A stretch of DNA of 64,000 nt from the human T2T-CHM13v2.0 reference genome, Homo sapiens, in assembly GCA_009914755.4 (NCBI GenBank), contig CP086569.2:24768001-24832000 (forward strand). The letters are read 5' to 3'. Below the pieces are notes generated by a model that saw nothing but the letters and a program-made list of their open reading frames with translations, was not told the origin of the DNA and made no database searches. The position numbers and the translations under genes are program-made. Position 1 is the stretch's first letter. Each line of letters opens with the position of its first letter. Shown here one piece after another: positions 8,801 through 51,838 of this stretch.

Positions 8801-9223
8801 TGAGTTATCATTTAATTTTGATGAAATCAACTCTACATAAACTGAAATTTTTAAATATATCTTAAAATCCATAATGCATTTGATGTTAAATATTTAAACA
8901 AAAGTAATATTATAGCTGTCTTTCTTGGTCACTTCTACTAGTATTATCCCCATAGAAAGAGACAAAAATTGTCACAGCAAAGACAGGCCATGTATTCTTT
9001 CATCACTTAAAATATAATTAAATTCTTATTATAATAAGATTTCTACTCTATATATAAACTAAACATTAAAATGTAGCCATTTCCTTGATCTAACAGTTGT
9101 CTAATGAAGTAAATCTCAATTATATAATTTTATCTCTATAAGTGTTAGAACACATCTGTAAAGATTTTCCTTAAAAAGTTGACCATGGTGCTGTCATCAC
9201 ACATAATAAAAATTATTTCATAA

Positions 9224-9318
9224 GCTTGGGCAACATGGCAAAAACCAGTCTCCACAAAAAATACAAAAATTACTCAGGTGTGGTGGTTTGAGCCTGTAGT
9301 ATCAGCTACTTGGGAAGG
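9224..9318 (+). mobile_element. Partial Alu (central fragment)
   Basis: gcttgggcaacatggcaaaaaccagtctccacaaaaaatacaaaaattactcaggtgtggtggtttgagcctgtagtatcagctacttgggaagg. Confidence 0.6.
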
Positions 9319-9549
9319 TAAAATGCCATTTCATTCACTGACTTTCGGTGTATGCTTAAAGTTCCTTCATTACTCTTTTCAAATTAGATTAGTGCATCAA
9401 TGATGTCTTTTAGTTTCTAGAGTAATGTTTATCCATGAGATTATGTATATCAAAGATCAACATTACTCAACATCAAATAAACATTTTTTCTTATCAAATG
9501 AACGTTTTCATCACTGTCAAGATAGTACCCCTTTCTAGCCCTGCAAGAA

Positions 9550-12045: not shown

Positions 12046-13304
12046 TGAGAATTAAACACATTAGTGTCTGTGTGTCTCTTAGTGTATTACCTCTTCTTTA
12101 AGTGCTATAAATATCAGCTGCTATTATTGCTTATCATGTATCTTCAATTTACTCACACCAAATTCTGCTTCATAGCATAAAAGAAAACAGAACAGTAACA
12201 GTCAGATAGTAGTGGCTATATGGAACCACAAAAGCATCAGTGTCTGTGTCAGTAATCTTTTGTAATTTATGACAAATAAGTGACCTTTTACACCTACAGA
12301 TTCTGCAAACATAGATTTCTTAAAACCTAAACTGTACTCAGTGTAACAATTTAGATTTGCTTCTTATGATAAGTAATTTGTGTTTGGCTTGTAGGAGTTT
12401 TTACAAGGTATCGAATGTGTTTAATCTATTTCTTCAGTCTTCTTGTTCTTTCTTTATGAAATCATTAGATCTAATTTATATGAATGTGTTGCCTTTTTGG
12501 TTTAGTTATTTCAAGGTAAAATATTTAAGATATCTTTACCTTAGAATATTGGTTTTTAATATATGGAAATATGGAAGAGCATTTATGTATTATATTAATT
12601 ATTACTTTTTACTTAAGCAGTTTGAAATACGAGTCAGTGAAGTAATCACTAAGATTTGGCTTAACTAACAAATATTTTATTAACAGCTTGAAAATACAAA
12701 TGTTTTTGACTATATATATAATTTTTTTTGAACAGTAGAATTATTTTCTGCATGAAGGAAAAGAATTTTCTATGATTAGCATACAAATTGCCTCTATATT
12801 CATCATTACCACAGGATGTTACACCAAAAAATGTTTGTGTTCCTGCCAGTGACTGGTACATGGCTTTGGATTTCACTCATAATGTAATTATAATTGGTTT
12901 GATTGTCTATTATGCCACTTTATATTTCCTAACAGTAAAATTATTATTTCAATTTTTAAATACACGAAAAACATTTTTGCGGTAATTGTGTGAGAATTCT
13001 TGGTAAACATAAAATTCTCTAATCTAAATATGCATTTTTTAATTAAAAATTATCTCTGTCTTCAAAAAATTTGTATCATAGCTTATTCTACTTTATCATT
13101 CAGTATTAAGCTTTATCTATTCTAAACAAAATCTTTACTTATAATTTAAAAAGTGGATCAGGTTTTACATCAGATTTTGTTTCTCATGTTGATAATTCCA
13201 ATAATTTGGAAGGGCAAGGAAAAAAGGACAATTGAGGCCAGGAATTTGGAACAGAGTTTGGCAAAATCCTGAAACACCATCTTTATAAAAAGTTTTTTAA
13301 AATG

Positions 13305-13612
13305 AGAAGATGTGGTGGCTTAACACTGGTAATCTTGTCACTTAATGAGGCCAAGATGGGTGGATCACTTTAGGCCTAGGATTTGAGGCCAGCCTGAGTA
13401 ACACTGCAAGATTCTGACTCTAAGAAAAAATTAAAATAAATATATAAATTAAATAATTAGCTGAGCCTACTGGCCTTTTCTTCTAGATGTAGCTAATTGG
13501 GAGGCTGAGGAAGCAGGACGACATAAGTCCAGGAGTTGGAAGCTGCAGTTAGTGACGATGGCACCACTGTATTCATTCCAGCTGGAGCACTAGAAAATTG
13601 TCTCTTAAAAAA
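13305..13612 (+). mobile_element. Old Alu (AluJ-like)
   Basis: gatgtggtggcttaacactggtaatcttgtcacttaatgaggccaagatgggtggatcactttaggcctaggatttgaggccagcctgagtaacactgcaag...ctaattgggaggctgaggaagcaggacgacataagtccaggagttggaagctgcagttagtgacgatggcaccactgtattcattccagctgg. Confidence 0.75.
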
Positions 13613-14945: not shown

Positions 14946-17204
14946 GAAGAAAAAAAAAACGCTTTCTTTGAAAGAGTTATAGAAGATGGCGTAGTATTAA
15001 ATTTTCATGTGTTAAACACAGACTTAACTTTGATCATTATGAGTTTGCTCATTAAAAACTTTTGCACTTAAAATGATTGTATTCAATTCATTGCCATTAG
15101 AACTTTACATTAAAAAAATGAGAGTTTTCCCAGTTTTAATTGAGCACTTCCTTTAAGTTATTGTTCTGACTCATAAAGCTATAACTTTCATGTAAATATC
15201 TGCTTCTTTCCTCAGCAAATAATGATAATCACTTTGCCTGAACTCAGAATTTTGTTGTGAGATGAAGTCAACGAGATGGTGTGTTTAAAATTATGGTGGA
15301 AGTGTAAATTCTTCTTTATTTAGTGTAAAACTGAATACCACTTACACGTCAATCCATCTCAGTGGTGGACTGCATAAATTAGAGCACACTGAATTGCAAG
15401 TTATGCAGCTACAAACAAAATTAAATGGATCTTCATATACTGACAGACGTGTGACGAAGTACAAAACGAAGTTAACAATATAGTCTATTGTATATATTCA
15501 TTTGTGTAAAAAATAAATAAATAGCTATATATATGGATTACTGCAGGCACAGAGATAATCTCTGGAACAGGAATATAAAATTGGTGGTCAGTTAATAATT
15601 GTTAGTATATATCATCCTATATAGTGAAAATATATATAAACTATGTAAAACAGTTAGCTAAAGCATTTAACAACAGCAGTGTTTGTTTAAAAAAAACTCA
15701 TTTGCAAATATATATTTACCATGTCAATACAATCATTAAATAAATTAACAAAAAAAGTGTTTTTTAAAAGCAAGTTTTTCCCTCTACATAGATCTCACAA
15801 TGCAAATGAAGATTTGATCTTTTAAGCAGTGAGTTAGCTGGAAACTCCTACAATGTGTTAAAAAAATACTTACATGGAAATATATATATATATATATAAA
15901 ATTTCGTATTTACTAATTACAGGCCTATACTGAATATGTTTGTTAATTACATACTTAACACTTAGCTTAATCTTGAAATACACTAAGTTTTATGTTACTG
16001 TATGTTAATTTGCTTACATTACCTTCCACTTTGAGTTTCAGTTCTGTGTAAGTTTAAACATTGCTACCTTTTTGTGGAACTTATTTGGATATTTAGAAGT
16101 AATAAAGTGCACTCAAATGTTTCCTTCTAATATCATGATTTTCAAAACCATTCCTCTTTTAGAATTTAATTAAAATAACAAGCAACTTCAGTGCATACAT
16201 TTTAAATATAACATTTTATAGCATTAAGTTTGGCCCCTCGTTAATGTAACATTTCCATATTTTTTCACATATGATAAAAACAACTCATGTGTTAAGTTAC
16301 CAAAACCAGCTACAGGAAACCATTAAAGAAAGGCATCTTCTTCAAAAAAATTGTATTCTCTCACTAAAGTTCTTCTACTTACATACCTGATGACTACAAA
16401 ATGTTGGGCTAGTTGACCAAAAACAAACAAACAAAAAAAAGTGAGTTACTTCTTTTTCTAAATGAAAAAAATAGTATTTCAAACCAAAGTAAATGAATAT
16501 TAATGAATAAAATCAGATTTATAATTTAAACCACTCACTAGTTATTGCCTTGTCTGTGTCATATATTGCAGTCAAAGAGCCTACTCTCATTTTTAGATTT
16601 TTTTACGCAGTCAATAGCTGGCGCAACAAGTAGCTCAAACTAGGATTCATGGTAGTGGGTGACCTACCTCTTGGAAATGCCTGTTCTGCTGGCAGTTCTT
16701 ACTTCTTATACATTGCAGGTGAACTATTGATGCAGGGAAGAGGAAAACATAAATTAATTTTAGGAAGAGAAAGTAATCATAATATTATTTGTAGAAAACC
16801 TAAATTAAGAAAAACCTGTTTTCTCAAAGAAAATACCTTTAAGTTTATTTGATATAATTAAACATCTCATTGTATCTTCAAACAATTTTGAATTTTCTTA
16901 CCAAAAAAGATCCTTAAAAAACAAACATTTATGTCAAGAAATGTAGTTTCCAAAGTAATATTTTTAAAGAAATTTCTAAAACCCCAGAGTTTTACACAAA
17001 AGAAAAATGATATTCTAAATAAACTTTCTCTTTTAATTACATATAAATGGATACACATTCATTTCCAATGAAAAGAGAATGCATTAAAATTATATTATTT
17101 TTCTTGACTTATGAGACATATGAAGAAACTCATAAACGTATGATATAGAAAATAAAGTTTTGCAACATGGATAAGTTTCTCAATTAGAAATTCATTCAAC
17201 TGCC

Positions 17205-18570: not shown

Positions 18571-18589
18571 ATTTAAACGCAACTAGCTA

Positions 18590-19085
18590 TGCTCCTTTTG
18601 TCATGAGATTTTGGGAGAGTCACCTTGCCAGTTGAAAACCTCTGCGGCCAGTGGTGCCTTTGCCTGCGTTTTCTCAGGCCTGCTAAGCTAGCTTTACCCA
18701 CTCTGCCTGACAGGCTGCACTCAGCTTGCATTATGGGCCAGGATTTAACACCTGCCAAGGGCAAACGTGAGGTAGAGTGGCAATGGTGTTTGAGCAAGTG
18801 TGGGGTCCAGCCGCTATAGACAGCCAGGCCTACCAGCTGTTGCAAAGCAAGAAATTTTAGGTACCAACAGAAGTACCATCTCACTGAGATGCAGCAGCTG
18901 GACCAGGCATACTGCAAGCAGCTTCCACAGCTGATACTGGGGAATGTAGTGGTGCCCAGAAGTTTCAGGATGCCAGAAACAGCAAAGCCCTAAAGAGGGT
19001 GTCACAGCCCTGGTTTTGAGATAGCCTAGCTGTCCTCTTACTTTTGTCTTTCACAACGTGATGAGCAAGAGACATTTTTTTCCCT
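18590..19085 (+). repeat. Unclassified ~500-bp interspersed repeat (LTR-like), copy B
   Basis: See copy A. It lies between the old L1 fragment (ending ~18570) and the 67-bp minisatellite/ERVL region. Confidence 0.75.
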
Positions 19086-24708: not shown

Positions 24709-30914
<6,206 letters not shown>

Positions 30915-42755: not shown

Positions 42756-44690
42756 GTAGAAAGCTTTCTGTACTACACCAGAGAGTAAGAGATGTGGATT
42801 TAGCTACTCTCACTTGAGGCTACTAAGCCAGCTATCATGCACCATGAGACAAAGCCCAAGCTGTCCCACCAGGGCATAATTGTGGAGAGCCTAAAGCCCA
42901 TAGCATAGCTGCTATTTCAAACAATTTTCACTACGTCAGTGGTGATGAAATAGAATAGGCTCATCCATACGCAGAACCTGGTAAAGAACTGGAGGCAGAA
43001 AGAAGTGGCTATGTGGAGATGCAAATGAAACAAATTTGGCACAGCAACTACTTCAATCCTGTGTCTTTCTTCCTGGCTTTCCAGGAGTTTGAGGTTGAAA
43101 CTATTGTTGACAAAAGACGAGACAAAAATGGAAAGACAGAGGCCAGGCACAGTGGCTCATGCCTGTAATCCCAGCACTTTGCAAGGCTGAGGCGGGCAGA
43201 TTACGAGTTCAGGAGATGGAGACCATTCTGGCTAATACAGTGAAAACCTCTTTCTACTAAAAATCATAAAGTTAGCCAGGCGTGGTGGCAGGCCCCTCTA
43301 ATCTCAGCTACCCGGGAGGCTGAGGCAGGAGAATCGCATGAACCCAGGAGGTGGAGGTTGCAGTGAGCCGAGATTGTGCAATTGTGCCACTGTACTCCTG
43401 CCTGGGTGATAGCTCAAGACTTTGTCTAAAAAAAAAAACAAAACAAAACAACAACAACAACAACAAAAATTTTTGGTGTTGCAAAGGTTAAGAAGAAACG
43501 GTATGACACTTGGGAACCAGAGCAGCACCGGTCAAAAATATATATATTACTTTAACAGATGACAGACTGAAAAACAGAAAAAGTAAAAAAGTGGCATGGA
43601 CCAGAACAACTAGAACTTTTTCAAACAATACCAGAAGATGAACTTCTACATCTACCAAGCCCAACTTTTCTAAGAATACTCCTAAAACGCTAGTGTCTGG
43701 CCAACACCACAAATTCAAAAGCAGCCAGTTATGTTCTGCCAGCCAGAATGTTAGCAGTAATCCAGGGTCACCTCTGTCCGACCCAAAGAATATGGAGCTA
43801 CTGTGTTCAACTATCAAGAAAGACACTTGCCCCTTACAACCCTTTTAACAACAAGAACACAGTGAGTGGCATTCAGGAACTCTAGAATCTGGACCCTATT
43901 GCAGCAGATCAGCAGGATACAGTGGTCTTCAAGGAGGAGGAAGGGAAGATCATCAGGGCTTTATCAGATCCCAGGGCAGGACATTGTGGAATAGAGAGCA
44001 AGACCCAGATTCACCCACTATTTTCTCAGAGGTCTGGCTCAGTTACGGCTTCCATGGCTGCAGACTCAGCTACCAAAAAAGGTATAGTGGTATTAATGGG
44101 CCAATCGGCAGCCAATGGAAAAACAGATGTGCATACATTAGTTGCAAGAGTGAAAGTTGGGCAAAGAAATGTTACTGACGGTGGCAGAGACCAGCTTTTT
44201 ATCCAGAAGATGTACCTCATCATAGGCCTAGCAGAAAGTGCCAGCACATACAGAGATATTGCAGTGAAGAAAGAGGACAGATTCACCCAGATGTGCCTAT
44301 AAACTAGATCAACATAAAAAATGTACTGAATATAGAAGTAATTAAAGCAATGGTTAATGCTCTGAATAGGGCTGCTGTGGGTGGCAGCAAGCTTGTGCTG
44401 TTCAGTGCAGCTGGAAGTGTCTTTTGCTGTGGTCTCGATTTGGGGTACTTTCTGAAGTATTTAAGGAAGGACAGAAACAGAACAAGCCTTGAGATGGTGA
44501 ACACCATCAAGAACTTTGTGAATACTTTCAATCAATTTTAAAAGCCTGTTTTTGTATCAGTCAGTGGCCCATCCTTCGGAATAGGTGCATCCACACTGCC
44601 TCTTTGTGATTTCTTCTGAGCTAATGAAAAGCCTTGGTTTCAAACCCCTTATATGACATCTGGACAGAGTCCAGATGGCTGTTGTGTTAC
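42756..44690 (+). pseudogene. CDY-like pseudogene: the upstream copy of a tandemly duplicated CDY unit, interrupted by an Alu and by stops/frameshifts, 3'-truncated
   Basis: Nucleotides 42756-42900 align to 46555-46700 (the CDY 5' flank), and 43050-43140 aligns to the chromodomain codons (ccaggagtttgaggttgaaactattgttgacaaaagacgagacaaaaatgg). An Alu is inserted at 43141-43468. ORF 43922..44302 (MVFKEEEGKIIRALSDP...[20 protein letters not shown]...STYRDIAVKKEDRFTQ) and ORF 44350..44541 ([60 protein letters not shown]) are ~78% identical in protein to CDY residues ~175-300 and 330-395. There is a stop after ...FTQMCL and frame changes. Homology ends at ~44690, corresponding to CDY residue ~450. 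Confidence 0.8.
43141..43468 (+). mobile_element. Alu inserted into the chromodomain-coding region of the CDY pseudogene copy
   Basis: ggccaggcacagtggctcatgcctgtaatcccagcactttgcaaggctgaggcgggcagattacgagttcaggagatggagaccattctggctaatacagtgaaaacc...cactgtactcctgcctgggtgatagctcaagactttgtctaaaaaaaaaaacaaaacaaaacaacaacaac. The flanks gacaaaaatggaaagacagag | tttttggtgttgcaaaggttaagaagaaacggtatgacacttgggaacc correspond to contiguous CDY sequence gataaaaatgggaatacacag|tatttggttcggtggaaaggttatgacaaacaggatgacacttgggaacc in the intact copy. Confidence 0.9.
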
Positions 44691-44699
44691 TTTAGTTCC

Positions 44700-45130
44700 T
44701 ACTTGAACTTTGCATCATCCAGCCTCCTTAATTATTGTGGCCATGAGACATTACTTCATCCCTTGATTGATCCCAGGCCAAGGTCTCAGGCCAAGCTGTC
44801 ACTTCAGCTCCTTCTTGGTCCAGGGCCAAGTTCCAAGGCTGAGCCTTGTAGCTTCTACAAATCATCACTTCAGCTCCAGATGAATCCAAGGCCAAGTTTC
44901 AGGGCCAAGCCAAATGACACCTACTCCAAGAACACTAACCACATTTCTTTACTTCTCTGTCCTTAGAAACTGTAAAGCACAGCCTCATAGTAGGTAAACC
45001 ACTCACATTCCACCCCCACTGTGAAGAGTTTTTTACTTTCACTTATAAAAGTTTTGATTCAACCTTTTTGCATCCATCCTCCTTAATTTTCTTGGCCATG
45101 AGACAAAGAACTCTGTGTGATATCTCACAA
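44700..45130 (+). repeat. Unclassified repeat element with internal GGCCAAG(G/T)TC-type sub-repeats, copy 1; begins exactly where CDY-pseudogene homology ends
   Basis: tcccaggccaaggtctcaggccaagctgtcacttcagctccttcttggtccagggccaagttccaaggctgagcc...ccaaggccaagtttcagggccaagccaaatgacacc, then ttttgcatccatcctccttaattttcttggccatgagacaaagaactctgtgtgatatctcac. It is homologous to 51050-51440. Confidence 0.55.
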
Positions 45131-45179
45131 TTAGAGTTTTCTAGGTCGTAGTGCACTAATGAGACTGCAATGATTGAAG

Positions 45180-46550
45180 TCTGGGAATTGAGCTCTGGGA
45201 TGCATCAGCCTTGCGAGACCAACTGACACACTGTCCCCACACTGTGATACACACCCTTCGGGTCAGTCAACCATATAGTGGTCACCAATGGAGTCTGAAA
45301 AGGGGCAAGGCAGATTTATACAGCCTAGAAACCTGAGGGACACCATCAAGCAGCCATACATATGCATTTTGGAAGTTCCAAGGAAGAGACAAAAACTCAT
45401 GGATACTATTTAACAACATAGTCATAAAGAATGCAACAATTTAAGACAATAAGTAAGCACCCAAGGAGCTCAACAGACTCCAAGTAACAAAAACTCAAAG
45501 AAACAAACTCAAACTTACCTGATAATTAAACTGTCTAAAATAAATACAAAGAGAACCTTGAGGATTTTCAAGGGAAGCAGGGGAAGTAGCTAGTCATGTA
45601 AAAGGGACCCTAAAAATAACCAGTGGATCACTTATCTGAATAACCACCGAAAAGCAGTAGATTTCTTATCTGAAAACTGAGATAGAAAGCAGTAGCCTCA
45701 TATATTCCAAGTGATGTCAGAAAAAACTGTCAAGCCTAAACATTATGATCCACCAAACTGTCCATCAAAGGTGAGGGACAAATTATGACATTCCCATATA
45801 AAAACTGGCACCTTTTACAAGTAGACTACCCTTTAAGAAATGTCTTATGGAGTACTTCAGGGTAGAATGGACAGATACTCAAAAGCAGTATGAACAAACA
45901 AAGATTAAGGTAAAGATAAATACATGAACAAATATGTAAGATAAAAAATTTGGCTGGGCTCAGTGGCTCACACCTGTAATCCCAGCATTTTGGGAGGCTG
46001 AGGTGCTTGGATCACGAGGTCAGGAGATCGAGACAATCCTGGCTAACATGGTGAAACCCCGTCTCTACTAAAAATACAACAAATTCGTAGGGCCAGGTGG
46101 CAGGTGCCTGTAGTCTCAGCTACTCGGGAGGCTGAGACAGGAGAATGGCATGAATCCGGGAGGTGGAGCTTGTAGTGAGCCAAGATCTCACTACTGCACT
46201 CCAGCCTCATTGACAGGGCGAGACTCCATCTCAAAACAAAACAAAACAAAACAAAACAAAACGAACAATTAACAATGTGCACCTCCACAATTTGTTCTCC
46301 ACATAACTTAAAACACAAATATATTTAATAAAAAAACTACCACTAATTTGTGTTTTTGACATAAAATCAATAAAGGTATAATTTTGAGAACTCAGTAAGT
46401 GAAATAATGGAGGTACATTATACAGGAGTAAAGGCTTTGTATGTTACTGAAGGTAAGCTAGTGTAACTTTAAAAATGTTATAACATTAGAATGTTCCATA
46501 TAATCGTCATAGCAACCACAATTAAACAAAGAAACACAAAAGAGTAACAG
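45180..46550 (+). mobile_element. Ancient L1 (L1M-like) ORF1 segment upstream of the intact CDY, carrying an Alu at 45952-46264
   Basis: agaaacctgagggacaccatcaagcagccatacatatgcattttggaagttccaaggaag translates to LRDTIKQPYICILEVPRK, which is L1 ORF1-like. It is colinear with 41925-42740 of copy 1. Confidence 0.45.
45952..46264 (+). mobile_element. Alu with (AAAAC)n tail, present only in the intact-CDY copy of the duplication (~600 bp upstream of the CDY 5' flank)
   Basis: ggctgggctcagtggctcacacctgtaatcccagcattttgggaggctgaggtgcttggatcacgaggtcaggagatcgagacaatcctggctaacatggtgaaaccccgtctctactaaaaatac...gcactccagcctcattgacagggcgagactccatctcaaaacaaaacaaaac. It is absent from the homologous position in copy 1 (~42500). 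Confidence 0.9.
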
Positions 46551-46554
46551 GCAG

Positions 46555-46871
46555 GAAGAAAGCTTTCTGTACTACACCAGAGGGTTGGGGCTGTGGATTT
46601 AGCTACTCTCACCTGAGGCTACTGAGCAAGTTGTCATGCACCATGAGACAAAGCCCAAGCTGTCCCACCAGGCAGTAAGTATGGAGAGGTTCAGGCACAT
46701 GGCATAGCTGCTATTTCGCACAATTTTCACTACACCAGTGGTGACAAAATAGAAGAGGTTCATCCATACACAGAACCTGGTGAAGAGTTGGAGGCAGAAA
46801 GAAGTGTCTATGTGGAGACGCAACTGAAACAAAGGTGGCACAGCAACTGTTCCAATCCCGTGTCTTTCCTC
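46555..46871 (+). promoter_or_regulatory. CDY 5' flank / 5'UTR segment, conserved between the two tandem copies (42756-43050 is its counterpart); presumed promoter/UTR of the retrogene
   Basis: Colinear homology between the two copies of the duplication lies immediately upstream of the chromodomain codons. No CpG island or clear TATA box was identified, and the transcription start cannot be placed from sequence alone. Confidence 0.3.
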
Positions 46872-48494
46872 ATGGCTTCCCAGGAGTTTGAGGTTGAAGC
46901 TATTGTTGACAAAAGACAGGATAAAAATGGGAATACACAGTATTTGGTTCGGTGGAAAGGTTATGACAAACAGGATGACACTTGGGAACCAGAGCAGCAC
47001 CTCATGAACTGTGAAAAATGTGTACATGATTTTAATAGACGACAGACTGAAAAACAGAAAAAACTGACATGGACTACAACCAGTAGAATTTTTTCAAACA
47101 ATGCCAGAAGAAGAACTTCCAGATCTACAAAAGCAAACTATTCTAAGAACTCTCCTAAAACGCCAGTGACTGATAAACACCACAGGTCCAAAAACCGCAA
47201 GTTATTTGCTGCCAGCAAGAACGTTAGGAGAAAGGCAGCTTCAATTCTCTCTGACACAAAGAATATGGAGATAATAAATTCAACTATTGAGACCCTTGCA
47301 CCTGACAGCCCCTTTGACCACAAAACTGTGAGTGGCTTTCAGAAACTTGAGAAACTGGACCCTATTGCAGCAGATCAGCAGGACACGGTGGTCTTCAAGG
47401 TGACAGAAGGGAAACTCCTCCGGGACCCTTTGTCACGTCCTGGTGCAGAACAGACTGGAATACAGAACAAGACTCAGATACACCCACTAATGTCGCAGAT
47501 GTCTGGCTCAGTTACTGCTTCTATGGCCACAGGTTCAGCTACCCGAAAGGGTATAGTGGTATTAATAGACCCATTAGCAGCCAATGGGACAACAGACATG
47601 CATACCTCAGTTCCAAGAGTGAAAGGTGGGCAAAGAAATATTACTGATGACAGCAGAGACCAGCCTTTTATCAAGAAGATGCACTTCACCATAAGGCTAA
47701 CAGAAAGTGCCAGCACATACAGAGACATTGTAGTGAAGAAAGAGGATGGATTCACCCAGATAGTGCTATCAACTAGATCGACAGAAAAAAATGCACTGAA
47801 TACAGAAGTAATTAAAGAAATAGTTAATGCTCTGAATAGCGCTGCTGCAGATGACAGCAAGCTCGTGCTGTTCAGTGCAGCTGGAAGTGTCTTTTGCTGC
47901 GGTCTTGATTTTGGGTACTTTGTGAAGCACTTAAGGAATAACAGAAACACAGCAAGCCTTGAAATGGTGGACACCATCAAGAACTTTGTGAATACTTTTA
48001 TTCAATTTAAAAAGCCTATTGTTGTATCAGTCAATGGCCCTGCGATTGGACTAGGTGCATCCATCCTGCCTCTTTGTGATCTCGTGTGGGCTAATGAAAA
48101 GGCTTGGTTCCAAACCCCTTATACGACCTTTGGACAGAGTCCAGATGGCTGTTCTTCTATTACATTCCCCAAAATGATGGGTAAAGCATCTGCCAATGAA
48201 ATGTTAATTGCTGGGCGAAAGCTGACAGCAAGGGAGGCATGCGCCAAAGGCCTGGTCTCTCAGGTATTTTTGACTGGAACTTTCACCCAAGAGGTTATGA
48301 TTCAAATTAAGGAGCTTGCCTCATACAATCCAATTGTACTGGAAGAATGTAAGGCCCTCGTTCGCTGTAATATTAAGTTGGAGTTGGAACAGGCCAATGA
48401 GAGAGAGTGTGAGGTGCTGAGGAAGATCTGGAGCTCAGCCCAAGGGATAGAATCCATGTTAAAGTATGTTGAAAATAAAATTGATGAGTTTTAA
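46872..48494 (+). CDS. CDY1: Testis-specific chromodomain protein Y (CDY family), intact intronless 540-aa ORF with N-terminal chromodomain and C-terminal enoyl-CoA hydratase/crotonase-like domain
   Basis: The six-frame ORF 46788..48494 contains the first in-frame ATG at 46872 ([54 protein letters not shown]...). This region is a classic chromo box. Residues ~285-540 (...[20 protein letters not shown]...[37 protein letters not shown]...) have a crotonase fold, and the protein ends ...[11 protein letters not shown] recognise this as human CDY; the 540-aa length matches what I recall for CDY1 rather than the 541-aa CDY2, but the paralog assignment is uncertain (~0.55). The 28-codon N-terminal extension in the ORF track is a TTG-start artifact. 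The ORF is uninterrupted over 1.6 kb, consistent with a retrogene. Confidence 0.9.
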
Positions 48495-49524
48495 TTGTCA
48501 GTCTGTCTGCTCAGGACACAAGAACTAAGGGGCAACAAATGCATCATGAGTTGCAAGATGCCCTAATCCATCTTCATAGCCCAAAACAATTTCACCCATA
48601 GCTAAGGCTTGGAAACAGAACTGGAAATGTCCAAGCTATGTATTTAAATTATCACATCATTTTTAAGCACTGTAGCTTTACAAGGAGTAACAAAACAGCC
48701 TCTTTGCCCAAATGTGATTATTTTATGCACACCTAAGCCCAAATATAAAAACAGACTCTTCTTGCAAGCTCTAATATGTATCTATGGCTACTACTATATA
48801 TAAGACCAGAGTTGTGTTTTATTAGATGTTTGTGACAGAGAATCCTGTAATAATGTTGATTTTTTCTTATTTTTATATCCTAGAATACCTCTGTTGGGAT
48901 ATAAAGCAGCCTTCCCTCCCAGAAAGACACAGAATGATCAGAGATGGTGCCCTTGACTTTATAGTGGCACAAACGCTTCAGAGACACACAATTATAAGAG
49001 ACTTATCTTTTAGCATAAATACTTATGGCTCAAAATCCACTGACGATCATTCTCCTAAACTGAACACATGACTAGAATTGGTGGTGAGATATCGCTTGAT
49101 TTTCTTTTCCTTTATAAATGTCTAGTTCTTACCCAGTTAACAAAAGAAAACTTTATCGCTCTAAAGTAAAACTTGTTACACCACATTAGTGAATTATGGA
49201 ATGATTTTGGTGGAAATATCCAGGTTCTAATGTGTGGAATGTGCAGATTTAGGTTACTTTAGTGTATGTTCTAGTTAATAAGTTAAAATTCTGGACACAT
49301 TATTAAAGGCAGAAACTTCTTTCAAAGCAAACACCGCTACACTTTGTATGACCTTTACAATTATCAGTGTCTCTTTTTATGAGCACACAATTTTCTAGAA
49401 CACTGTATGTGCTCAGTTATGCAAAAGCTCTATGAATCCTGTCTTGTTGGTTTTTATCGAGGCTCCATTACATAGACATAATTGAATAATCCACTGGCCA
49501 CTGGTGATGAATGTCATCTTTGTC

Positions 49525-49945
49525 ACAAGATCTCTAGGGTGTCACTTCACCAGCCAAGAACCTCTGTGGATGATGGCACCTTTGTGCAAGGTTCCCTTGA
49601 GCCTGCTTTTCTAATTTTACAAACCCATCTTACAGGCTGCACTCAGCTCAAACTATGGGCTTAGGTTTCATTTTGCTATGGATGCACCAGGCACAGACTG
49701 GAGGCAGATGCATGAGTGAGTGTTGGTTCAGTCCAGCCACTGCACACAGCTTTGCCTGTTATCTGTGATGAGGTAAGCAGGTCAGGTGCTGGTACAGGTG
49801 ACAGCTCCCTGCAAATCTTTAGGTGAATCAGGCATACCACAAGCTTTCTCTTCTGCAGGCACTGAAGAATGCAGTGGCATCCACAAAAGAAGAAATGCCA
49901 GAAAATGCAAAGGCCCAAGGACGTCATCCTAGCCCTGGCATGGGA
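49525..49945 (+). repeat. More diverged copy (C) of the same unclassified repeat family, same orientation as copy B
   Basis: tttgtcacaagatctctagggtgtcacttcaccagccaagaacctctgtggatgatggcacctttgtgc... cttacaggctgcactcagctc... ccagaaaatgcaaaggcccaaggacgtcatcctagccctgg aligns with the B segments tttgtcatgagattttgggagagtcaccttgccagttgaaaacctctgcggccagtggtgcctttgcc / cctgacaggctgcactcagcttgc / ccagaaacagcaaagccctaaagagggtgtcacagccctgg. Confidence 0.55.
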
Positions 49946-51049
49946 AAGGTTTAGAGCTGGGGTATCTAAAGGGCCAATGTCCTGCTTTCTTTTTCCTTTT
50001 TTCTTTTTTTTTTTTTTTTTTCTTATCTATGGGATCACTATGACTTAAATTAGGGTTTTCAAAGGGCTCTGTCTCTCTTTCTACTGGAAATTAGCATCTT
50101 GTCTTTTCTTCACTCTTTCTCTCTTTGACTGCTTTTTATTTACTATGACATGCTATAGAAGAAATGCGTCTTGGCCCAGCATCTTTCTGTTGACTGTAGG
50201 GCTATTTGTCAGAAGCAGTAAGATTTTGGCTCAGCAATAAGGTAACATCTTCCCATTTAAGACCAAAAAAAGGGCTAGATATTAGAAAGGCTCTATATAT
50301 TTATTGATGTATCAGAAAACTTCCCCAGGTCTTACTTTATTTGTTTAAGGTACTGTAATGAAAAAGAAACTTGCACTTTACTGGCACCTCATTCATTGGG
50401 CATTTCCTATAGGGGTAGTAAGGAACGTGGAGGGTTGGATGTAAAAACTGGAAAAGCTGATGATGATGTGACTAAAAGGTTCTCTGCATCAAGAAGATGA
50501 GAAAACCTGTGGTAACAAATGTGGTTTTGAGTGTTTCCAGGGAGAATGTTTCTCTGACGTTTGGGAGTTGTTTCTTGTGGGCTTTTCTGATATGACTGCT
50601 AAGAAAGCAGGAACAATTTTACAGTATTTACAAAGATGTGGGTGGTTTCACAGGGCAAAAAGCCTTGCACATAGGGAACTTCAAACAATGTGCCTTTGAC
50701 TCTCAGAAACTATCTAGGTTTTCAATAGTATTGACAAAGAAAAGCTACATAGTTGTGGTGGATTATTGGTAAAATTTCTGCAAGCAGAGAAACAGCCTGA
50801 AATATCAGGCTGCAGACACAAATTTAAGAATCCTGCACAATCCTGTGGCACAAGCAAATAATTTTTTTAAAAAAGCCCAACTTTTTGTGTGTGTGTGCTT
50901 AAGACATGCCCACAGCTACTCAGATAAAAAAAAAAAAAAAAAAAAACAAGACCCCGCATTAAAATGTTGTGTCTTTTGTGTAACCAGAGTGCTTCCAGGA
51001 AATAGTCTCTCTCTTTTTTAGAACTTGTACATATTGGACTCCAATGTGT

Positions 51050-51440
51050 TACAAAGGGTACCTTATATTACTAAACATACTTCAGACTCCGAGCCAAATT
51101 TCTGTAAATTATCATTTAAGACTCTGGTCCCAGGCCAAGGTCCTGGGCCATGCTTTCCCTTTAGCTCTTGTGTGGCTCAGGGCCAAGTTCCTGAGCCAAG
51201 CTGAGTCATTACATCCGCCATTAATAGTTCCAGGCACAAGGACCCAGAAAAGATGAGAAGTGCTTTCTTCAAAACTAGTTAGTACCTTTTCTTCCTTCTG
51301 AGTCCATAAAAATATGAGACTCTTTCTCAAAGTGGGCAACTGACTCTACTCCACCAGAAGTTAACATATTAAACATTTACTATCATCTCACCTTTTGCAT
51401 TCCTAATTTTTAATTTTCTTGAAATTAAAAAGATCTGTGT
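51050..51440 (+). repeat. Unclassified repeat element, copy 2 of the GGCCAAG-rich element
   Basis: ctctggtcccaggccaaggtcctgggccatgctttccctttagctcttgtgtggctcagggccaagttcctgagccaagctgagtcattacatccgcc...ttttgcattcctaatttttaattttcttgaaattaaaaagatctgtgtgtcacc is colinear at ~75% with the 44776-45125 segments. Confidence 0.5.
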
Positions 51441-51545
51441 GTCACCTAAAAATGAGAGACTGATACATTGTGGTTCACTGGGGGACAGCAAGGTTTGTTT
51501 TTGGTTCATGGACTTGGAAAGGCCTTAATTAAAAAGGTCAGTAGG

Positions 51546-51838
51546 GGCTGGGCATGGTGGCTCATGACTGTTATCGCAGCACTTTGGGTGGCCAATGTGG
51601 GAAGATCAGGAGGAGATCAAGATGGAGATCATCCTGGCTAACATGGTGAAGCCCTCATGAAGTCTACCAAAAATACAAAAAATTAGCAGGGTGTGGTGGT
51701 GGGCACCTTTAGTGACAGTTGCTTGGTAGGCTAAGGCAGGAGAATGGCATAAACCCGGGAAATGGAGCTTGCAGTTAGCCAAGATCATGCAACTGGACTC
51801 CAGTTTAAGTGACAGAGAATCCATTAGAAAAAAAAAGT
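51546..51838 (+). mobile_element. Alu
   Basis: ggctgggcatggtggctcatgactgttatcgcagcactttgggtggccaatgtgggaagatcaggaggagatcaagatggagatcatcctggctaacatggtgaagccc...gcagggtgtggtggtgggcacc...ggcaggagaatggcataaacccgggaaatggagcttgcagttagccaagatcatgcaactggactccag. Confidence 0.85.

What the first reader, a model, noticed from the sequence alone, without database searches (positions are those of the whole stretch)
44690..45130. CDY-pseudogene homology breaks exactly at a GGCCAAG-rich repeat element that recurs at 51050-51440, with related motifs at 54900-55080 and 60270-60440
The pseudogene copy is colinear with CDY through ...ggacagagtccagatggctgt and then switches into an element with internal sub-repeats (cccaggccaaggtctcaggccaagctg...ccagggccaagttccaaggctgagcc...ccaaggccaagtttcagggccaagcc). 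A second copy of this element (~75% identity, including the trailing ttttgcat.c.t...ttaattttcttg...tgtgtg...tc.c block) lies 2.5 kb beyond the intact CDY. Looser GGCCCAGG / GACCAATCAG..CTGAAGT.A.GATTCA-containing relatives are at 54900-55080 and 60270-60440. Within 44712-45125 there is also a ~50-bp direct repeat (ttgcatcatccagcctccttaattattgtggccatgagaca versus ttgcatccatcctccttaattttcttggccatgagacaaag). I cannot assign this to a named family. Its position at the truncation point suggests it either inserted into copy 1 or marks the duplication breakpoint, in which case copy 2's counterpart would be the 51050 copy and the duplicon would be longer than the CDY gene.
Basis: seen in the sequence. 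Interest (0 to 1): 0.5.

Follow-up and report, generated by a model that had tools for sequence, protein, structure and literature searches.

The report
Rearrangement scar beside CDY pseudogene
The repeat-rich stretch that cuts off the CDY pseudogene is a 630-base piece of old downstream flanking DNA, moved next to the truncated gene copy by an ancient duplication-and-deletion event on the primate Y chromosome; it is a structural scar, not a new kind of element.

Summary
CDY-pseudogene homology ends at 44684-44696. The GGCCAAG-rich block that follows has three relatives in the window: 51104-51507 (+), 55093-54650 (-) and 60440-59900 (-), with nhmmer E-values from 1e-11 to 1e-23.

In squirrel monkey, which has a single CDY, the whole inter-copy stretch 44690-45319 aligns contiguously to a segment about 4 kb downstream of CDY (313 bits, K2P 0.30). 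That is orthologue-level divergence. So the block did not insert as a transposon. It is ancestral 3' flank, and it closes a roughly 7-kb tandem duplicon that starts in an L1 fragment upstream of CDY. Copy 1 then lost about 4 kb, the CDY 3' third plus flank. That loss joined CDY directly to the block.

The 51104 copy is not its counterpart. It is twice as diverged (K2P 0.55) and lies on the wrong side of the neighbouring repeat. The true counterpart in copy 2 was deleted at about 50000-50019.

The four copies belong to an ancient low-copy module with weak LTR-like features. I could not name it without Dfam. Apes share the whole arrangement. The finding is ordinary genome archaeology and of low interest.

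The parts
41914..42476 (+). L1 ORF1-derived fragment (a). This is the left end of duplicon copy 1. The ancestral upstream flank Z continues to its left.
   Evidence: It is homologous to 45318-45949 (69%) and to L1 ORF1 regions at 29238-28896 and 34285-33993, which carry recognisable L1 ORF1 and ORF2 reading frames. The Pfam Transposase_22 hit on copy (b) is weak (E=0.066). The Z | L1 boundary is continuous in squirrel monkey.
42477..44689 (+). Truncated CDY pseudogene: 5' UTR plus about the first 430-455 codons, interrupted by an Alu at 43142-43470.
   Evidence: It is 82-83% identical to 46253-48153. Only short ORFs remain. K2P to CDY is 0.19, and it groups with catarrhine CDY at 100% bootstrap.
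44684..44696 (.). Junction J1: CDY coding sequence joined to the middle of the repeat module. About 4.3 kb of squirrel-monkey sequence (L004 11297-15609) is missing here.
   Evidence: Junction sequences are. A short shared GTTA-type motif is visible on both parental sequences by eye. There is no GT/AG splice signal.
44690..45319 (+). It is an internal fragment of the ancient repeat module, contiguous with squirrel-monkey L004 15609-16207.
   Evidence: nhmmer gives 313 bits, E=3.8e-95. blastn gives 73.4% over 593 bp. K2P is 0.29-0.31 with clade support 1.0.
44751..44911 (+). Three tandem 47-66-bp sub-repeats (CACTTCAGCTCC...GGCCAAG...GGCCAAG) carrying 5 GGCCAAG sites.
44703..44750 (+). Upstream copy of a 48-nt direct repeat; its partner is at 45058-45105. 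It is the remnant of a ~175-bp internal duplication that J1 cut short.
   Evidence: The full duplication is still present in squirrel monkey, L004 ~15490-15665 against ~15833-16000 (score z=12.2).
45306..45320 (.). Junction J2: the end of duplicon copy 1 (tail of X) joined to the start of copy 2 (L1 fragment b).
   Evidence: X/squirrel-monkey homology stops at 45305-45309. L1 fragment homology starts at 45312-45320. The sequences show a possible GCCT(T)AG microhomology.
45320..45949 (+). L1 ORF1-derived fragment (b), the left end of duplicon copy 2.
46269..49290 (+). Intact CDY retrogene: ORF from ATG 46872 to stop 48494, 540 aa, followed by 3' flank. An Alu lies just upstream at 45953-46268.
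   Evidence: ORF. Homologues carry Chromo and ECH domains, and the best hit is 98% identical. The region is colinear with L004 9436-12423.
49292..50019 (+). Repeat R2, orthologous to L004 12868-13593. It is truncated on the right compared with squirrel monkey and with other copies in the window.
   Evidence: K2P 0.32, bootstrap 1.0.
50000..50019 (.). Junction J3: a deletion in copy 2 of L004 13593-16680. That interval held the counterpart of X (up-X-T) and the first ~320 bp of repeat I. The junction lies between two T-rich tracts.
50013..50733 (+). P_B, a fragment of repeat I and the orthologue of squirrel-monkey I (L004 16681-16933).
   Evidence: K2P is 0.39 to squirrel monkey against 0.66-0.69 to I_C and I_D, with bootstrap 0.98.
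50749..51507 (+).
54650..55492 (-). Older paralogue C (55093-54650) with 'up' (55492-55114). On the minus strand it is followed by repeat I_C (54659-52098).
59900..60846 (-). Older paralogue D (60440-59900) with 'up' (60846-60462).
61023..63888 (+). Tail-like segment T' (61023-61362) plus repeat I_D (61362-63888). I_D is an inverted paralogue of I_C.
   Evidence: K2P between I_C and I_D is 0.63 over 2448 bp.

Best explanation
The block at 44690-45319 is not an inserted element. It is a fragment of the DNA that originally lay about 4 kb downstream of the CDY retrogene.

The ancestral order is still seen in squirrel monkey: upstream flank Z, L1 fragment, CDY, 3' flank, repeat R2, then an ancient repeat module [up - X - tail - I].

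Early in the catarrhine lineage, about 7 kb running from the L1 fragment to the tail of X became tandemly duplicated. The junction of that duplication is J2 at 45306-45320.

Copy 1 lacks about 4 kb, namely the last third of CDY, its 3' flank, R2 and 'up'. That loss fuses CDY codon ~455 directly to the middle of the module (J1, 44684-44696). The result is the truncated pseudogene.

Copy 2 kept the intact gene. It lacks about 3 kb that included its own copy of X (J3, ~50000-50019).

The three junctions could come from one duplication followed by two deletions. They could equally come from a single replication-based event with three template switches. The data cannot separate these.

The copies at 51104, 55093 and 60440 are much older paralogues of the same module. 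The scar has no indicated function.

Shown: the colinearity, the distances, the trees and the junction positions. Inferred: the order and mechanism of the events, and the microhomologies, which were read by eye in sequences about 30% diverged.
For: 1. The whole stretch between the CDY break and the second L1 fragment (44689-45309) aligns as one piece to squirrel-monkey L004 15609-16207, downstream of a single CDY.

2. K2P between X and the squirrel-monkey element is 0.29-0.31. This equals the orthologous neutral divergence of neighbouring segments: L1 fragment 0.33-0.38, R2 0.32, I 0.39. The clade X + squirrel-monkey element has bootstrap 1.0.

3. Copy 1 keeps the ancestral left flank Z, which is continuous with L004 8505-8852. 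Copy 2's homology starts exactly at the L1 fragment. This is the pattern expected from a tandem duplication.

4. The pseudogene and CDY group together to the exclusion of the New World monkey CDY genes (bootstrap 1.0 in the CDY part, 0.76 in the L1 fragment). K for L1 fragment a against b is 0.31.

5. In copy 2, R2 (matching L004 up to 13593) abuts the orthologue of I (matching L004 from ~16680). The interval holding up-X-T is missing. R2 continues to ~14213 in squirrel monkey, as it does in other R2 copies in the window. The deletion is therefore on the catarrhine side.

6. Orangutan and siamang Y loci are colinear with window 37000-58500 at about 90%. The arrangement is therefore at least ape-wide.

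7. There is no splice signal at the break and no Rfam family.
Against: - Only one outgroup species, squirrel monkey, shows the ancestral arrangement. Marmoset and tamarin CDY loci lose homology about 800 bp after the stop codon and give no information. No Old World monkey locus could be retrieved.
- If squirrel monkey itself were rearranged, the direction of the events would be less certain. However, the module integrity seen in the paralogues C-I_C and T'-I_D supports its order.
- The L1-fragment tree supports a post-split duplication only at 0.76. The duplication could therefore slightly predate the catarrhine/platyrrhine split, with squirrel monkey having lost one copy.
- The microhomologies at the junctions are short and were judged by eye.
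Confidence: 0.8

Rival explanations
1. One reading: the 51104-51507 copy (B) is copy 2's counterpart of X. On this view the duplicon ran from the L1 fragment through B, and copy 1 lost only the interval between CDY codon ~455 and the element.
For: X and B are on the same strand and are each other's best match inside the window (77 bits, against 66 and 53 bits for C and D). X + squirrel monkey + B form a clade against C + D (bootstrap 0.945).
Against: K2P between X and B is 0.53-0.56. That is nearly twice the 0.31 of the co-duplicated neutral L1 fragment and twice the X/squirrel-monkey distance. The squirrel-monkey element groups with X at bootstrap 1.0. B lies downstream of P_B, the orthologue of squirrel-monkey I, whereas X's counterpart must lie upstream of I. 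The X/squirrel-monkey colinearity also covers 44690-44767 and 45190-45309, which B does not match.
Confidence: 0.07
2. A solo LTR or other transposon inserted into, or landed next to, copy 1. The pseudogene's truncation was caused by that insertion or followed it.
For: The family has weak LTR-like traits. These include sub-repeats in a U3-like region, a CCAAT motif, a TATA-like CATA(A/G)AAAC motif and an ATTAAA signal. There is also a TGGTGCA... stretch after ...ACA that resembles a primer-binding site, and purine-rich tracts before 'up'. There are four copies within 16 kb.
Against: CDY homology does not resume after the block and there is no target-site duplication. Both ends of X fall inside a larger module: 'up' continues to the left in B, C, D and squirrel monkey, and tail/I continues to the right. 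The block with its flanks is orthologous to a pre-existing squirrel-monkey segment. Its divergence from B, C and D (K 0.53-0.70) far predates the CDY duplication.
Confidence: 0.05
3. The pseudogene is a retrocopy of a spliced CDY transcript, whose second exon lies in the downstream element.
For: From my own knowledge, not checked in a paper here: CDY1 is reported to have a minor spliced isoform (Lahn & Page 1999). The siamang gene model spans 2.1 kb for a 556-aa product. The break-then-downstream-sequence pattern looks superficially like an exon junction.
Against: There is no GT at the break and no AG before the block, in human or squirrel monkey. The pseudogene shares 560 bp of non-genic L1 flank upstream. 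There is no poly(A) after the block. Instead the block abuts the start of copy 2.
Confidence: 0.02

Closest known systems
Complex tandem duplication with deletions, or with junction-inserted nearby sequence (microhomology-mediated repair; FoSTeS/MMBIR-type rearrangements)
   Same: It has direct-orientation duplicated segments and a single-copy ancestral state in an outgroup. Its junctions join points a few kb apart and share only short similarity. All pieces come from within about 8 kb.
   Different: The event is tens of millions of years old and the sequences are about 30% diverged. Microhomology and single-step versus multi-step origin therefore cannot be established. No polymorphic or intermediate state is available.
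Solo LTRs and LTR-plus-internal fragments of ancient mammalian endogenous retroviruses (ERV1-, ERVL- or MaLR-age families)
   Same: The size is about 0.7-0.95 kb when 'up' is included. It has sub-repeats, promoter-like and poly(A)-signal-like motifs and a PBS-like stretch. One arrangement (up-X-T-I-up_B-B) resembles LTR-internal-LTR. Copy-to-copy K of 0.55-0.7 is typical of very old families.
   Different: There are no clean TG...CA termini and no target-site duplications. The 2.5-kb 'internal' repeat I has no gag or pol signal. The four copies are clustered locally and share flanks, as segmental duplicates would. The family could not be matched to a named consensus.
Non-processed (duplicated) pseudogenes in Y-chromosome ampliconic regions, for example the numbered CDY pseudogenes
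   Same: It is a truncated, disabled gene copy lying in tandem with its functional parent. It shares non-genic flank and is conserved in position across apes.
   Different: Nothing unusual. The parent happens to be itself a retrogene, derived from CDYL according to Lahn & Page 1999 (listed as a reference in PMC2918367).

Membership tests
Transposon insertion into the pseudogene | Host (CDY) sequence resumes after the element, with a target-site duplication | tested here: not met
   After 45319 the sequence is the start of duplicon copy 2 (L1 fragment, then CDY from its 5' end). There is no resumed CDY 3' part and no TSD.
Transposon insertion into the pseudogene | The ends of the block coincide with the natural termini of the repeat family | tested here: not met
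   B, C, D and squirrel monkey continue leftwards into 'up'. X, D and squirrel monkey continue rightwards into tail/I.
Tandem segmental duplication scar | Two direct copies share non-genic flank, and an outgroup has a single copy | tested here: met
   L1 fragment + CDY is duplicated. There is a single copy in squirrel monkey, marmoset and tamarin loci within +/-10 kb.
Tandem segmental duplication scar | Copy 1 keeps the ancestral left flank, and the junction joins the duplicon's right end to its left end | tested here: met
   Z is continuous with L1 fragment (a), as in squirrel monkey. The tail of X (matching L004 ~16205) abuts the start of L1 fragment (b) (matching L004 8852).
Tandem segmental duplication scar | Microhomology at the junctions | tested here: inconclusive
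   Short shared motifs are visible by eye: GTTA at J1, GCCT(T)AG at J2, and T-rich tracts at J3. Divergence is too high for a firm call.
LTR retrotransposon / solo LTR | TG...CA termini and a 4-6-bp target-site duplication | tested here: inconclusive
   A ...ACA end followed by TGGTGCA-like sequence is visible. The 5' ends of 'up' are inconsistent: TGTGGTGG in B, TTAGC in C and D. TSDs cannot be assessed.
LTR retrotransposon / solo LTR | The internal region encodes gag, pol or env remnants | tested here: not met
   No Pfam family at E<=1 in three frames of the 2.7-kb I_C region. I_D was not scanned.
LTR retrotransposon / solo LTR | Match to a curated consensus (Dfam/Repbase) and dispersed genomic copies | not testable with these tools
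   No repeat library or primate whole-genome search was available. No further copies occur in the other 44 kb of the window.
Processed (retro-) pseudogene of a spliced CDY transcript | Exon junction at canonical splice sites, a poly(A) tail, and no shared non-transcribed flank | tested here: not met
   No GT/AG at the break. The upstream L1 flank is shared. There is no poly(A) after the block.
Structured RNA family | Rfam covariance-model hit | tested here: not met
   0 hits at gathering threshold in 41000-64000.

The most novel reading that the evidence does not exclude
The rearrangement placed a promoter-bearing fragment of an ancient LTR-like module about 1 kb upstream of the surviving catarrhine CDY, in the same orientation. 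The fragment carries CCAAT-, TATA- and poly(A)-signal-like motifs and sub-repeats. On this reading it contributes to CDY's testis-specific transcription. A related possibility is that the clustered module copies represent an undescribed ancient Y-linked retroelement family.
Probability: 0.04. Interest if true: 0.4.

Novelty: already known. Interest (0 to 1): 0.15.

Why it matters
It matters little beyond local annotation. It explains why this CDY pseudogene is truncated where it is. It shows that the CDY duplicon in apes was originally about 7 kb rather than gene-sized. It dates the event to early catarrhine evolution. It also shows that a 'repeat at a breakpoint' can be relocated flank rather than an inserted transposon. 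This could be a small, useful data point for reconstructing how the CDY-bearing Y amplicon was assembled.

Tried and rejected
- **Splicing or retrocopy origin of the junction.** Rejected: there are no GT/AG signals and the upstream flank is shared.
- **X as an L1 5' UTR continuous with the following L1 ORF1 fragment.** Rejected: the L1 fragment starts mid-ORF1, and repeat I, which follows copy C, has no L1 similarity.
- **The 48-nt direct repeat as templated filler made at the deletion junction.** Rejected: the duplication is present and longer in squirrel monkey.
- **'up' + X as two tandem copies of one unit.** Only the X/squirrel-monkey lineage has a ~175-bp internal duplication. B, C and D show none.
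- **Pfam scan of the 2.7-kb repeat I_C.** Nothing found; the first attempt failed on stop codons.
- **Exact-protein look-up of the window's CDY.** Not on record.
- **Marmoset and tamarin loci.** Uninformative: homology ends ~800 bp after the stop codon.
- **Literature search.** It gave background only and no description of this junction.
- **Tandem Repeats Finder.** It does not call the sub-repeats.
- **Pattern scans of the public contig collections for further family members.** Considered and not run. Any pattern short enough to match 25-30% diverged copies would be swamped by chance bacterial hits.
- **Naming the family.** Tried from memory of consensus sequences, without success.
Full report
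**What the window is.** The region holds an intact 540-aa CDY open reading frame, from ATG 46872 to stop 48494. Its homologues carry Chromo and enoyl-CoA-hydratase domains. Window 46425-51745 is 98.8% identical to a human-contaminant contig from a gut metagenome that encodes a 541-aa CDY. The wider region is about 90% identical and colinear over 37000-58500 with orangutan and siamang Y-chromosome CDY loci. I infer that this is a great-ape, probably human, Y-chromosome CDY locus. The species is not proven. CDY is a retrogene derived from CDYL (Lahn & Page 1999, listed as a reference in PMC2918367).

**Checking the observation.** Self-comparison shows that 41912-44683 is homologous to 45318-48153 once one Alu in each copy is set aside (43142-43470 and 45953-46268). 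Identity is 82-83% in the CDY part and 69% in an upstream fragment. That fragment derives from L1 ORF1. It matches L1 copies elsewhere in the window that still show ORF1 and ORF2 reading frames. It also gives a weak Transposase_22 hit. The duplication was therefore a DNA-level event that included non-genic flank.

Homology stops at 44684-44696 on one side and 48154-48170 on the other. The intact copy continues with CDY coding sequence. The pseudogene continues with the GGCCAAG-rich block. Five of the window's 14 GGCCAAG sites lie in 44776-44909. The block contains three 47-66-bp sub-repeats and a 48-nt direct repeat pair, 44703-44750 and 45058-45105.

The block has three relatives in the window:
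- 51125-51498 on the plus strand
- 55093-54665 on the minus strand
- 60440-59944 on the minus strand

nhmmer E-values for these range from 1e-11 to 1e-23. For the first, a local alignment scores 153 against 26 +/- 3.6 for shuffles. Identity to the 51-kb copy is 60-72% depending on how gaps are counted, not ~75%. The two 'looser' relatives are full reverse-strand copies.

**Wider anatomy.** The relatives B (51 kb), C (55 kb) and D (60 kb) share a further 300-400 bp on their 5' side, which I call 'up'. A second repeat, I, of about 2.5 kb, is associated with them:
- 54659-52098 on the minus strand, directly after C
- 61362-63888 on the plus strand
- a fragment, P_B, at 50013-50733 just before 'up' of B

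I has no Pfam signal. Block X lacks 'up' on its left and I on its right. Both of its ends therefore fall inside a larger module. This already argues against a clean transposon insertion.

**The decisive comparison.** I retrieved CDY loci from other primates by exact-protein look-up. In squirrel monkey (L004), which has a single CDY, the order is as follows:
- flank Z
- L1 fragment (8852-9440)
- CDY
- an Alu
- repeat R2 (12868-13593, continuing to ~14213)
- 'up' (15212-15610)
- an X-like segment (15610-16207)
- a tail
- repeat I (16360-16930)

Window 44689-45309 is exactly the stretch between the CDY break and the second L1 fragment. It aligns as one piece to L004 15609-16207. The scores are 313 bits (E=3.8e-95) and 73.4% over 593 bp by blastn. 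The alignment includes the 50-60 bases at each end that the other window copies do not match.

Distances and trees point the same way:

| Comparison | K2P |
|---|---|
| X vs squirrel-monkey element | 0.29-0.31 |
| L1 fragment, human vs squirrel monkey (orthologous neutral) | 0.33-0.38 |
| R2, human vs squirrel monkey | 0.32 |
| I (P_B), human vs squirrel monkey | 0.39 |
| X vs B | 0.53-0.56 |
| X vs C | 0.61-0.70 |
| X vs D | 0.66-0.69 |

The X/squirrel-monkey distance matches orthologous neutral divergence in the neighbouring segments. The squirrel-monkey element groups with the ape X sequences at 100% bootstrap. The 48-nt direct repeat is the stump of a ~175-bp internal duplication that is still intact in squirrel monkey. 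It is therefore not junction filler.

**Reconstruction.** Copy 1 retains the ancestral left flank Z. Copy 2's homology begins precisely at the L1 fragment. The tail of X abuts that start at 45306-45320. This is the signature of a tandem duplication of about 7 kb (L004 8852 to ~16207).

Relative to that unit, copy 1 lacks L004 11297-15609. This interval holds the CDY 3' third, its flank, R2 and 'up'.

In copy 2, R2 (up to L004 13593) abuts P_B (from L004 ~16680) at about 50000-50019, between two T-rich tracts. P_B is the orthologue of squirrel-monkey I: K is 0.39, against 0.66-0.69 to the other I copies, with bootstrap 0.98. So copy 2's own up-X-tail was deleted.

B lies after P_B. It therefore cannot be X's counterpart by position, and its divergence rules it out as well.

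The pseudogene and CDY cluster together, apart from the New World monkey genes (bootstrap 1.0). K for L1 fragment a against b is 0.31, just below the human/squirrel-monkey value. This dates the event to early catarrhine evolution. Orangutan and siamang share all the junctions.

Whether there were three separate events or one replication-based event with three template switches cannot be decided. The short motifs shared at the junctions (GTTA, GCCT(T)AG, T-runs) are suggestive only.

**What the repeat family is.** A five-lineage alignment shows weak LTR-like features:
- sub-repeats in a U3-like region
- CCAAT- and TATA-like motifs
- an ATTAAA signal
- a conserved ...CTCTGTGTG...AGAGACTG.TA.. 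end followed by TGGTGCA(C/T)TG, which resembles a primer-binding site
- purine-rich tracts before 'up'

The ancestral order up-X-tail-I-up_B-B resembles LTR-internal-LTR. However, the termini are not clean and no target-site duplications can be seen. The 'internal' part has no retroviral protein signal. The copies are clustered locally and share flanks, as old segmental duplicates would. Without Dfam or RepeatMasker I cannot name the family. There is no Rfam hit.

I rate 'ancient LTR-derived low-copy module' as plausible but unproven. This uncertainty does not affect the main conclusion.

**Function.** None is indicated. Ape-to-ape divergence of X (0.06-0.08) equals that of the neighbouring neutral segments (L1 fragment 0.07-0.10, B 0.07), so there is no sign of constraint. 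A speculative reading is that the relocated LTR-like fragment, now about 1 kb upstream of CDY in the same orientation, influences its transcription. The data do not exclude this and do not support it either.

**Verdict.** It did not insert into the pseudogene, and the 51-kb copy is an older paralogue rather than its counterpart. This is an ordinary ancient rearrangement scar in an ampliconic Y region, and the interest is low.

Noticed in passing
window 26400-30450 and 31490-35380 (minus strand): Two L1 copies about 5 kb apart, both on the minus strand, with recognisable ORF1 and ORF2 (reverse transcriptase) reading frames. Both match squirrel-monkey L004 18005-21622 very strongly (E down to 1e-144).
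   Followed up: partly
window 41317-41778: Two tandem units of about 230 bp, roughly 80% identical, just upstream of the first L1 fragment. They are also present in orangutan and siamang.
   Followed up: no
window 52098-54659 (-) and 61362-63888 (+): An ancient inverted pair of a 2.5-kb non-coding repeat (I), with K2P 0.63 and both ends defined. A third, fragmentary copy lies at 50013-50733. There are no Pfam hits and its nature is unknown.
   Followed up: partly
window 49511-50005, 18589-19050 (+), 2331-1850 (-): Another interspersed repeat family (R2) with three copies in the window. The copy next to CDY is orthologous to squirrel-monkey L004 12868-13593 and is truncated on its right side in the ape lineage.
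   Followed up: partly
L003 (Callithrix, record CM111789.1, 167 Mb) and L008-L010 (Saguinus): In callitrichids, an intact CDY with the same upstream L1 fragment sits on a 167-Mb chromosome in marmoset. In tamarin it is present on several contigs. Homology to other primates ends about 800 bp after the stop codon. This suggests a different, lineage-specific duplicon.
   Followed up: partly
L005-L007 (siamang Y, 19.35, 20.6 and 21.9 Mb): Three near-identical copies of the whole pseudogene-X-CDY-B arrangement, spaced about 1.25-1.3 Mb apart. The scarred unit was therefore later amplified as a block.
   Followed up: no
window about 60920-60966; 50926-50947; 49990-50022: Three simple tracts: a (GTT)n microsatellite between 'up' of D and the tail-like segment; a 22-nt poly(A) run inside 'up' of B; and a long T-rich tract at junction J3.
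   Followed up: no
window 46872-48494: The exact 540-aa CDY product is not on record in the gene-position collection. The nearest cluster representative is a 541-aa protein, 98% identical, from a human-gut metagenome contig that is clearly human contamination.
   Followed up: partly
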